Virus record (IMG/VR): IMGVR_UViG_2660238683_000003
Coordinates: 1-27,426 of that record
DNA length: 27,426 bases
Source of the DNA: a virus
Taxonomy: Duplodnaviria > Heunggongvirae > Uroviricota > Caudoviricetes
Strand: one strand, 5' to 3'
Shown one piece after another: positions 7,022-7,211 of this stretch. Each line of letters starts with the position of its first letter. Within the stretch, counting starts at the first letter, position 1. A model generated the notes under the pieces. The model saw only the letters and a program-made list of their open reading frames with translations, did no database searches and was not told the origin of the DNA. A program made the position numbers and the translations under genes.

Positions 7022-7211
7022 AAGTTCCCTCCTACGTTGTCAGGAGGTAATGGTATGCAAAGTAACTTCTCACCAGTCATTCAAAATATTTCGATAGATA
7101 ATTGATGTCAGATTTTGATGGTTCCCTATATTTATAAAGAAAAGACGCTTGACAGTAGCTCCATTGGTGCTACCATTCCACCAACGAAAGCTTACCAATA
7201 ATGGGTTTAAT

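What the first reader, a model, noticed from the sequence alone, without database searches (positions are those of the whole stretch)
7026..7048. Anti-SD hairpin occluding the ribosome-binding site of the lydA holin
On the minus-strand mRNA the sequence reads ...UACCUCCU-gacaacgu-AGGAGGG-aacuu-GUG. The strong SD AGGAGG is preceded 8 nt upstream by its exact complement CCUCCU, so the RBS can be locked in a 6-bp stem. Combined with the GTG start, this suggests holin translation is deliberately damped or timed. P1 lysis timing is known to be tightly regulated, but I have not seen this specific element described.
Basis: seen in the sequence. Interest (0 to 1): 0.45.

Follow-up and report, generated by a model that had tools for sequence, protein, structure and literature searches.

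The report
Holin RBS hairpin straddling late promoter
The CCUCCU/AGGAGG stem in front of the phage P1-type holin gene lydA is real, but its upstream arm lies inside the late promoter, so it cannot lock the normal late mRNA and could only silence transcripts that read in from upstream, as in phage T4's lysozyme gene.

Summary
On the minus strand, CCTCCT (7047..7042) and AGGAGG (7033..7028) are exact complements 8 nt apart, and GTG (7021) lies 5 nt after AGGAGGG. The stem-loop folds at -9.1 kcal/mol.

The interpretation needs correcting. The block is 100% identical to P1 and P7, where late promoter LPdar is annotated. Its -22 box maps to 7068..7060 and its -10 TACCAT to 7055..7050. Late transcription should therefore start at about 7043..7040, so the 5' arm sits at about -5..+1 and is missing from the late mRNA. 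Predicted cost of opening the SD is about 10 kcal/mol in read-through RNA and about 2 kcal/mol in late RNA.

The best reading is a transcript-selective RBS lock of the T4 gene e type. It would silence early or read-through RNA, such as RNA from the lydC early promoter in P1/P7.

Support is indirect. Complementarity between the core promoter and its own SD is enriched at P7 and D6 late promoters (p<=5e-5), and LPsit in this window has an 11-bp case with one compensatory change. For lydA alone the evidence is weak: p is about 0.01-0.02, and the element is not conserved across divergent lydA leaders. Chance remains a serious rival.

The parts
7060..7068 (-). -22 box AAGTTACTT of late promoter LPdar. 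[quoted passage not shown]
   Evidence: Annotated in AJ000741, NC_005856 and AF503408. The window is identical to them here. It fits the P7 late-promoter consensus AAGTGACTT-N4-TANNNT and is found by regex in the window. PMC10695390 states that the 9-bp repeat is the Lpa-binding site.
7050..7055 (-). -10 hexamer TACCAT of LPdar.
   Evidence: Annotated as minus_10_signal in P1 and P7, mapped to the window through alignment A1.
7042..7047 (-). 5' arm CCTCCT (anti-SD). It occupies positions 3-8 after the -10 hexamer, i.e. the promoter discriminator, about -5..+1.
   Evidence: Sequence. Position relative to the -10. Effect of including or excluding it in the RNA.
7040..7043 (-). Expected start window for late transcription (inferred, not mapped here). 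Taking the -22 box centre at 7064 gives +1 = 7042. G7041 and A7040 are the only purines within reach.
   Evidence: Inference from the annotated -22 and -10 signals and standard sigma-70 RNA polymerase geometry, in which the start lies 6-10 nt after the -10. No start-site data were found in the papers held.
7034..7041 (-). Loop GACAACGT. G7041-U7034 can close a seventh pair.
   Evidence: Folds.
7027..7033 (-). Shine-Dalgarno AGGAGGG. The 3' arm is 7033..7028.
   Evidence: Duplex with the 16S 3' end is -10.7 kcal/mol.
6692..7021 (-). lydA holin CDS with a GTG start at 7021..7019. Its stop overlaps the lydB start (ATGA at 6695..6692).
   Evidence: ORF list. 99-100% identity to LydA of P1, P7 and SJ46.
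7006..7024 (-). Second, weaker predicted hairpin, CUUGUG (7024..7019) paired with CACAGG (7011..7006). It includes the GTG start codon.
   Evidence: MFE structure. It is not the dominant structure in RNAs that start at 7043..7041.
21693..21736 (-). Sibling example in the same window, late promoter LPsit. Its -22 box is 21736..21728 and its -10 TAGAAT is 21723..21718. The 5' arm CTCGTAGAATC (21727..21717) contains the -10 hexamer. It pairs with GATTCTACGAG (21703..21693), which overlaps the SD of pmgC/tubA (ATG at 21686).
   Evidence: Regex hit. Fold -21.2 kcal/mol, z=-4.8, 0 of 200 shuffles. The P7 homologue ranks 1 in the cognate tests. One G-C to A-U compensatory change in the JK004 clade.

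Best explanation
The inverted repeat is real, but it straddles the start point of the Lpa-dependent late promoter LPdar. Its 5' arm (CCTCCT) is the promoter's discriminator, about -5..+1. Its 3' arm is the lydA Shine-Dalgarno sequence.

Proposed mechanism:
- Late lydA-lydB-dar mRNA starts at about 7043..7040 and lacks the 5' arm. It has a short leader of about 19-22 nt with an open, strong SD.
- Only RNA that enters from upstream carries both arms and has the SD locked.
- In P1 and P7 the obvious source is the predicted early, C1-controlled lydC promoter, which lies immediately upstream with no predicted terminator in between.
- In this window lydC is absent, so the source would be any transcription reading in from the tail-fibre side or a weak upstream promoter.

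The element would therefore act as a transcript-selective RBS lock. Holin cannot be made from early, lysogenic or fortuitous read-through RNA, and is made only when Lpa fires LPdar. This is the logic of phage T4 genes e, soc, 49 and I-TevI, and of IS10/IS50 fold-back inhibition.

Shown here:
- the sequence and the predicted fold
- identity to the annotated P1/P7 promoter
- thermodynamic contrast between long and short RNAs
- enrichment of the same architecture at sibling late promoters

Inferred:
- the exact +1
- the existence and amount of read-through RNA
- any effect on translation or lysis
For: 1. Promoter position. The -22 box and -10 of LPdar are annotated in three records. The window is 100% identical from 7072 through lydA. 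The architecture AAGTTACTT-tgca-TACCAT fits all nine annotated P7 late promoters.

2. Thermodynamics. SD opening cost is 9.4-10.6 kcal/mol when the RNA starts at or upstream of 7047. It is 2.6, 2.35, 2.06 and 1.8 kcal/mol when it starts at 7043, 7042, 7041 and 7040. The hairpin persists in the P1 lydC-lydA context.

3. Read-through is plausible. lydC carries a predicted early promoter immediately preceding the dar operon, while lydA is late (PMC9025707). P7 annotates a C1 operator Op(lydC). No terminator is predicted between lydC and LPdar, nor in window 7000-9900.

4. Class-level support.
- In 8 annotated P7 plus 9 regex-defined D6 late promoters, the core promoter (-26..-1) is more complementary to its own gene's SD window than to those of other late genes. 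This gives z=-4.8, p<=5e-5, with 6 of 17 ranking first.
- 102 non-late P7 genes show little or no such effect: z=-2.5 (p=0.008) at the shortest pseudo-leader, and z=-1.5 to +1.4 at the longer ones.
- A swapped-upstream thermodynamic test on all 28 promoter/leader pairs gives p=1.5e-4.
- A complement of at least 6 nt is found in 4 of 8 late first genes against 9 of 102 others, Fisher p=0.0065.
- In several cases the 5' arm includes the -10 hexamer itself (LPsit, D6 R, pmgB, darB, lpa). Those arms can only matter for upstream-initiated RNA.

5. LPsit in this window has an 11-bp stem with z=-4.8. The JK004 clade shows a compensatory G-C to A-U change (TAGAAT to TAAAAT with GATTCTAC to GATTTTAC) while the loop diverges.

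6. Two diverged lydA lineages have a different anti-SD at the same place, directly after the -10. The Citrobacter plasmid L015 has TCGGACCT/AGGTCCGA, 8 bp, rank 1. L118 has CCCTTCT/AGGAGGG.

7. The precedent is documented. T4 e, soc, 49 and I-TevI are described in PMC3014915.
Against: - For lydA itself the pairing is only SD core against a pyrimidine run. Other late promoters' upstream regions occlude this SD nearly as well. The cognate pair ranks 8-9 in the duplex test and 2/13 or 4/28 in the thermodynamic test.
- Across 13 diverged lydA leaders, cognate specificity is not significant (p=0.22, p=0.18).
- D6, L111, L126 and others lack an anti-SD after the -10.
- The 79 close relatives are invariant in this block, so they give no covariation information.
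- The single-locus p is only about 0.01-0.02 before correction for the number of genes scanned.
- The +1 of LPdar was not seen in any data available here. It is inferred from the -22/-10 labels.
- In this window lydC is missing, so the natural source of read-through RNA is unclear.
- No experiment shows read-through RNA or its translational state.
Confidence: 0.45

Rival explanations
1. Chance complementarity with no function. A strong, G-rich SD (AGGAGGG) happens to lie 8 nt downstream of a pyrimidine run in the promoter discriminator. The block is conserved only because the whole promoter-lydA segment is nearly identical among P1-type phages.
For: - 13 of 110 P7 genes have a complement of at least 6 nt to their SD window within 41 nt upstream, and 4.4% of shuffles do for lydA.
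- Foreign late-promoter regions occlude the lydA SD with a median of 7.2-7.4 kcal/mol against 10.3 for the cognate.
- Tests restricted to lydA lineages are not significant.
- The CCTCCT element is absent from JK004, Salmonella Newport, D6 and other leaders.
- There are no informative variants in 79 close relatives.
Against: - Single-locus p is 0.013-0.02, and z=-3.0 for the local fold.
- The same architecture is significantly enriched at sibling late promoters of P7 and D6.
- It recurs with unrelated sequences at the same position in L015 and L118 lydA leaders.
- LPsit shows a compensatory change.
Confidence: 0.35
2. Both arms are in the mature lydA mRNA, and the hairpin damps or delays holin translation from the late message.
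For: The hairpin is stable (-9.1 kcal/mol) and would cost about 10 kcal/mol to open. In this window a weak sigma-70-like match (CTGACA-17-TATTTT, 7111..7083, minus strand, 9 of 12) could give an RNA starting near 7076 that contains both arms.
Against: - The 5' arm begins 3 nt after the annotated -10 hexamer. RNA polymerase starts 6-10 nt after the -10 (established knowledge). The -22 label places +1 at about 7042.
- RNAs starting there have an open SD.
- The sigma-70-like hit is no better than expected by chance: 4 found against 2.5 expected, and 9 found against 11.4 expected.
- That hit lies in sequence not shared with P1 or P7.
Confidence: 0.07
3. A DNA-level role. The C-rich discriminator tunes LPdar open-complex stability or start-site choice. 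Alternatively, the CCTCCT-N8-AGGAGG palindrome, which spans about -5..+15, is an operator for a dimeric repressor. Complementarity to the SD would then be incidental.
For: The palindrome covers the classic operator position over +1. Several late promoters have pyrimidine-rich -10 and discriminator regions, such as TACCCT-ctc, TATCCT-ctg and TACTCT-cct.
Against: - Discriminators of the P7 and D6 late promoters share no consensus.
- In sibling cases the arms have unrelated sequences and loop lengths from 6 to about 18 nt, but always pair with the cognate SD region. That fits RNA pairing better than a common protein site.
- No known P1 regulator binds such a site. The C1 operator is an asymmetric 17-mer (from memory).
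Confidence: 0.08

Closest known systems
Phage T4 gene e (lysozyme), and also soc, 49 and I-TevI. In these genes an RBS-sequestering hairpin has its 5' strand encoded by the late-promoter region (PMC3014915; McPheeters et al. 1986, cited there).
   Same: - It is a lysis gene.
- The SD is sequestered in a helix in long, upstream-initiated transcripts.
- A late promoter sits so that late transcripts lack the 5' strand and are translatable.
- As reported for T4-type phages, the structure is present in some relatives and absent in others.
   Different: - The T4 late promoter is TATAAATA, read by gp55/gp33. Here the promoter is a sigma-70 -10 plus an Lpa -22 box.
- The T4 e structure, its 5' ends and a reduction in lysozyme synthesis reported as 100-fold (PMC3014915) are experimental. 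Here everything beyond sequence, annotation and folding is inferred.
- The stem is shorter here (6-7 bp) and covers only the SD, not the start codon.
IS10/IS50 fold-back inhibition of read-through transcripts (Davis, Simons and Kleckner 1985; Schulz and Reznikoff 1991; recalled from memory, not checked here).
   Same: The 5' arm lies upstream of the element's own transcription start. Only externally initiated RNA can occlude the RBS, which protects against fortuitous expression of a harmful product.
   Different: That is a transposase gene in an insertion sequence, not a phage late operon. There is no dedicated activator-dependent promoter.
Lambda S holin sdi stem-loop and dual-start motif (from memory).
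   Same: An RNA structure next to a holin RBS that influences lysis timing.
   Different: The lambda structure lies within the late mRNA and chooses between two start codons (holin and antiholin). LydA has a single start and a separate antiholin, LydB. Here the 5' arm lies outside the late mRNA.
The P1/P7 lydC leader hairpin, seen in related locus L003.
   Same: It is a holin paralogue in the same phages. Its SD and AUG are buried in a long imperfect hairpin, and its SD opening cost is 14.4 kcal/mol, the highest difference among the control genes.
   Different: Both arms lie downstream of the predicted early promoter and operator, so this one would be a true in-mRNA RBS lock. lydC is absent from this window.

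Membership tests
T4 gene e-type transcript-selective RBS occlusion | The SD and/or start codon is base-paired in a stable helix in long, upstream-initiated RNA. | tested here: met
   In silico only. There is a 7-bp stem, the SD opening cost is about 10 kcal/mol with 20-60 nt of upstream RNA, and it holds in both the window and the P1 context.
T4 gene e-type transcript-selective RBS occlusion | A late promoter is positioned so that late transcripts start within or after the 5' strand of the helix. | tested here: met
   The annotated LPdar -22 and -10 map to 7068..7060 and 7055..7050. The arm occupies positions 3-8 after the -10, and the expected +1 is 7043..7040. The +1 itself is inferred, not observed.
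T4 gene e-type transcript-selective RBS occlusion | Upstream-initiated (early) transcripts really extend into the gene. | tested here: inconclusive
   P1 and P7 have a predicted early lydC promoter and C1 operator immediately upstream, and no terminator is predicted. In this window lydC is replaced by a divergent module, and no terminator is predicted in 7000-9900. No transcript data are available.
T4 gene e-type transcript-selective RBS occlusion | Long transcripts are poorly translated and late transcripts well translated. | not testable with these tools
   This needs reporter fusions, toeprinting or Ribo-seq.
T4 gene e-type transcript-selective RBS occlusion | The structure is maintained by selection (conservation or covariation among relatives). 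| tested here: inconclusive
   For lydA there is no variation in 79 close relatives, the element is not conserved in most diverged leaders, and lineage tests give p about 0.2. Analogous arms are present in L015 and L118. The class-level signal is strong, and LPsit has one compensatory pair.
   The 5' arm lies at about -5..+1 of the annotated late promoter. RNAs starting at 7043..7040 cannot form the stem. This rests on the inferred +1.
Rfam-curated cis-regulatory RNA | A match to a described covariance model. | tested here: not met
   No Rfam hit with E<=1 in window 6850..7250.
P1 Lpa-dependent late promoter (LPdar) | A 9-bp inverted repeat (-22 box), a 4-nt spacer and a TANNNT -10, with no -35. 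| tested here: met
   AAGTTACTT-tgca-TACCAT is identical to the annotated LPdar of P1 and P7 and fits the P7 set. Lpa dependence was not tested here.

The most novel reading that the evidence does not exclude
P1-like phages (P1/P7 and D6) may use a genome-wide design in which Lpa-dependent late promoters are embedded in the 5' strand of hairpins that occlude the SD of the first late gene. Candidates are lydA, pmgC/tubA, gene 23 and pacA in P1/P7, and prt, R, pmgB, ddrB, darB and lpa in D6. Early, lysogenic or read-through transcripts, which are frequent in a genome where many operons have tandem early and late promoters, would then be translationally silent. Only Lpa-initiated RNAs would be translated. 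I found no description of this for P1 in the papers searched.
Probability: 0.5. Interest if true: 0.6.

Novelty: new member of a known kind. Interest (0 to 1): 0.45.

Why it matters
Premature holin synthesis kills the host before progeny are made. [quoted passage not shown]

A promoter-embedded RBS lock would explain how early or leaky read-through RNA is kept from producing LydA without any extra protein factor. It would extend a mechanism known from T4 to a temperate, sigma-70/Lpa-dependent phage family.

It also carries a practical warning. Cloning lydA or other late genes with their native upstream sequence behind foreign promoters may give misleadingly low expression. Leader hairpins predicted from DNA should be checked against the transcription start before they are called translational regulators.

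Tried and rejected
- Covariation in close relatives. 79 IMG/VR P1-type loci are invariant from the -22 box to GTG, so they carry no information. The only variants were A7048-to-C, which lengthens the stem, and A7026-to-T.
- Sequence conservation across diverged lydA leaders. CCTCCT is not conserved in JK004, Salmonella Newport, D6, two Citrobacter plasmids and 10 IMG/VR lineages.
- A thermodynamic comparison suggested that 9 of 13 lydA lineages have an SD occluded only in long RNA (MWU p down to 3e-5 against control genes). I rejected this as evidence for lydA-specific selection. Swapping in foreign upstream regions occludes these strong SDs almost as well (p=0.18).
- The genome-contig scan with LydA found only 2 loci, one of them unrelated.
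- Direct TSS evidence. Guidolin 1989, Schmidt 1996 and Lobocka 2004 are not held. The P1 RNA-seq and review papers give no 5' ends. The NC_005856 annotation has no TSS feature at LPdar or LPs.
- Terminator reading of the hairpin. No T-run follows it, and the scan finds none.
- Known RNA family. No Rfam hit.
- LPsit inner stem pairs (GGU/ACC). Variants are not compensatory. Only the main 11-bp stem shows one compensatory event.

Full report
**1. What is there**

The minus strand reads AAGTTACTT-tgca-TACCAT-ta-CCTCCT-gacaacgt-AGGAGGG-aactt-GTG. The GTG at 7021 opens a 109-aa ORF (6692..7021). That ORF is 99-100% identical to LydA of P1, P7 and SJ46. lydB, hdf and darA follow it.

CCTCCT (7047..7042) is the exact complement of AGGAGG (7033..7028), with 8 nt between them. 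ViennaRNA predicts the stem with an added G-U pair:
- -16 kcal/mol for the 61-nt context, z=-3.0
- -9.1 kcal/mol for the stem-loop alone

**2. Where it sits**

The window is identical to P1 and P7 from about 7072 through lydA. Upstream of that point the sequences are unrelated. In AJ000741, NC_005856 and AF503408 this block carries the annotated late promoter LPdar, with a -22 region and a -10 signal. Mapped to the window:
- the -22 box AAGTTACTT is at 7068..7060
- the -10 TACCAT is at 7055..7050

All nine annotated P7 late promoters share the layout of a 9-mer box, 4 nt and TANNNT. The 9-bp repeat is described as the Lpa-binding site of the 11 P1 late promoters (PMC10695390).

CCTCCT occupies positions 3-8 after the -10 hexamer. 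If the box centre is at -22, then +1 is 7042. Standard sigma-70 geometry (start 6-10 nt after the -10, purine preferred; established knowledge) gives 7043..7040. The late mRNA therefore keeps at most two nucleotides of the 5' arm.

**3. Consequence for the RNA**

| RNA start | SD opening cost |
|---|---|
| At or upstream of 7047, or with 20-60 nt of upstream sequence | 9.4-10.6 kcal/mol |
| 7043 | 2.6 kcal/mol |
| 7042 | 2.35 kcal/mol |
| 7041 | 2.06 kcal/mol |
| 7040 | 1.8 kcal/mol |

It can only act on RNA that enters from upstream.

In P1 and P7 such RNA is plausible:
- lydC lies immediately upstream with a predicted early, C1-controlled promoter (PMC9025707).
- No terminator is predicted between lydC and LPdar.
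- The stem persists when the P1 lydC-lydA junction is folded.

In this window lydC, cin and the C segment are replaced by a divergent plus-strand module. No terminator is predicted between the tail-fibre operon and lydA. A weak sigma-70-like match at 7111..7083 is no better than chance.

**4. Is it more than chance?**

For lydA alone:
- Random P7 60-mers placed upstream reach the observed occlusion in 2.0% of trials.
- Dinucleotide shuffles of the real upstream sequence reach it in 1.3% of trials.
- A perfect complement of at least 6 nt between the SD window and the 41 nt upstream is found in 13 of 110 P7 genes.

So this locus alone would not survive correction for the number of genes scanned.

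**5. Relatives**

79 IMG/VR P1-type loci are invariant from the -22 box to GTG, although at least six different sequences abut the promoter. The mosaic junction lies exactly at the promoter, and there is no covariation information.

Diverged LydA homologues (40-80% identity) were collected from phages, plasmids and IMG/VR. All have a recognisable box-N4-TANNNT promoter 19-33 nt from a mostly GTG start. CCTCCT is not conserved.

Two lineages have a different anti-SD at the same place directly after the -10:
- Citrobacter plasmid L015: TAAAAT-CGGACCT...AGGTCCG
- L118: TAAGTT-CCCTTCT...AGGAGGG

JK004 and the Salmonella Newport plasmids have an anti-SD upstream of the -22 box, with one A-U to G-C exchange between them. 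D6, L111, L126 and others have none.

Cognate-versus-swapped tests restricted to the 13 lydA lineages are not significant (p=0.22, p=0.18). Foreign late-promoter regions occlude these strong SDs almost as well as the cognate ones.

**6. A wider pattern**

The other late promoters show the same architecture more clearly. In P7:
- LPsit: CTCGTAGAATC, which includes the -10, pairs with GATTCTACGAG at the SD of tubA/pmgC (11 bp).
- LP23: CTCTTCC pairs with GGAAGAG.
- LPpac: CTTTCGT pairs with ACGAAAG.

In D6 the late promoters were defined by a regex built from the shared box. Those of prt, R, pmgB, ddrB, darB and lpa do the same.

Statistical tests:
- A permutation test used the core promoter (-26..-1) against the last 18 nt of the leader, comparing cognate with swapped partners. 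It gives z=-4.8, p<=5e-5 for the 17 objectively defined P7 and D6 promoters, with 6 ranking first.
- 102 non-late P7 genes with pseudo-leaders give z=-2.5 (p=0.008) at the shortest pseudo-leader and z=-1.5 to +1.4 at longer ones, with 0-2 of 102 ranking first.
- A swapped-upstream thermodynamic test on all 28 pairs gives p=1.5e-4.
- Late first genes are enriched for complements of at least 6 nt: 4 of 8 against 9 of 102, Fisher p=0.0065.

In this window LPsit lies at 21736..21718, with arms at 21727..21717 and 21703..21693. It folds at -21.2 kcal/mol with z=-4.8. In the JK004 clade the -10 changed from TAGAAT to TAAAAT and the 3' arm from GATTCTAC to GATTTTAC. This is one compensatory G-C to A-U event, while the loop diverged.

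Several 5' arms contain the -10 hexamer itself. These helices can therefore only concern upstream-initiated RNA.

**7. Comparison with known systems**

The logic matches phage T4 genes e, soc, 49 and I-TevI. In T4, early read-through RNA sequesters the RBS, and late promoters immediately upstream give RNAs that lack the 5' strand. For e, this avoids premature lysis (PMC3014915). It also matches IS10/IS50 fold-back inhibition (from memory).

It differs in the promoter type, which here is a sigma-70 -10 plus an Lpa box. It also differs in being supported only by sequence, annotation and folding.

It is not an in-mRNA attenuator of the lambda S sdi kind. No Rfam family matches. Searches of the held literature found no description of this element or design for P1.

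**8. Verdict**

- Observation: confirmed.
- Interpretation: partly supported. The SD can be locked, but not in the late mRNA.
- Best explanation: a T4 e-like transcript-selective lock that silences read-through RNA (confidence about 0.45).
- Main rival: chance complementarity (about 0.35).
- A DNA-level role: about 0.08.
- Novelty, if functional: a new member of a known kind.

The more interesting lead is the family-wide promoter-SD complementarity in P1-like and D6-like phages.

Noticed in passing
window 21693..21736 (-): Late promoter LPsit is embedded in an 11-bp perfect hairpin. The 5' arm CTCGTAGAATC contains the -10 TAGAAT, and the 3' arm GATTCTACGAG overlaps the SD of pmgC/tubA. The fold is -21.2 kcal/mol with z=-4.8. 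The JK004 clade shows one compensatory G-C to A-U change.
   Followed up: yes
P7 (L004/L005) and D6 (L177/L178) late promoters: Core late promoters (-26..-1) are significantly complementary to the SD region of their own first gene (z=-4.8, p<=5e-5, n=17). Non-late genes show little or no such effect. This suggests a general read-through-silencing design that I did not find described for P1.
   Followed up: partly
L003 259..315 (P7 lydC leader; same in P1 L002): The holin paralogue lydC, absent from this window, has its SD GGGAGGAG and AUG buried in a long imperfect hairpin. This hairpin lies downstream of the predicted early promoter and operator. The 116-nt fold is -30.4 kcal/mol with z=-3.3, and SD opening costs 14.4 kcal/mol.
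   Followed up: partly
window 7149..9189 (+): In place of lydC, cin and the invertible C segment there is a divergent three-gene module. It holds a 109-aa ORF (annotated XRE-family in one record), a hexapeptide-repeat acyltransferase, and a GT4 glycosyltransferase annotated as LPS N-acetylglucosaminyltransferase (also hits Pfam GT4-conflict). The module occurs in 14 Escherichia P1-like plasmids. It is probably a lysogenic-conversion or surface-modification cassette.
   Followed up: partly
window 9854..10720 (-): A 289-aa macro-domain protein (Pfam Macro, E=2.6e-18) is encoded inside the tail-fibre operon. It lies between the S-like fibre gene and a lambda gpK-type tail-fibre assembly gene (9245..9826).
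   Followed up: no
window ~7072..7081 (-), and IMG/VR loci L017-L096: The homology breakpoint with P1 and P7 lies exactly at the upstream edge of LPdar. Among 79 relatives, at least 6 unrelated sequences abut an invariant promoter-leader block, so the late promoter acts as a mosaic junction. The same is seen upstream of LPsit.
   Followed up: partly
L088 (IMG/VR contig start), corresponds to window ~7048: In one contig the LPdar -22 and -10 are replaced by unrelated sequence up to ...GGTC|ACCTCCTGAC, while the hairpin and lydA are retained. This may be a rearrangement or IS junction, or an assembly edge. Another locus has A7048-to-C, which extends the stem to 7 Watson-Crick pairs.
   Followed up: no
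window 7006..7024 (-): A second predicted 6-bp hairpin (CUUGUG/CACAGG) includes the GTG start codon of lydA. It is present in the MFE of long RNA but is not dominant in RNAs that start at the expected late +1.
   Followed up: partly
L006 and L010 (JK004 and Salmonella Newport lydA leaders): The SD (GAGGTGAGT or GGGGGGAGC) pairs with ACTTACCTT or GCTTACCCTTC, located upstream of the -22 box (about -40..-30). There is one A-U to G-C exchange between the two lineages. This is a differently placed anti-SD that would also be absent from late RNA.
   Followed up: partly
D6 L177 4584..4602 (-): D6 has a late-type promoter box directly upstream of its lpa homologue. The sequence ATCCCCT at the -10/discriminator pairs with the lpa SD GGGGGAT. 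This hints at positive autoregulation combined with read-through silencing.
   Followed up: no
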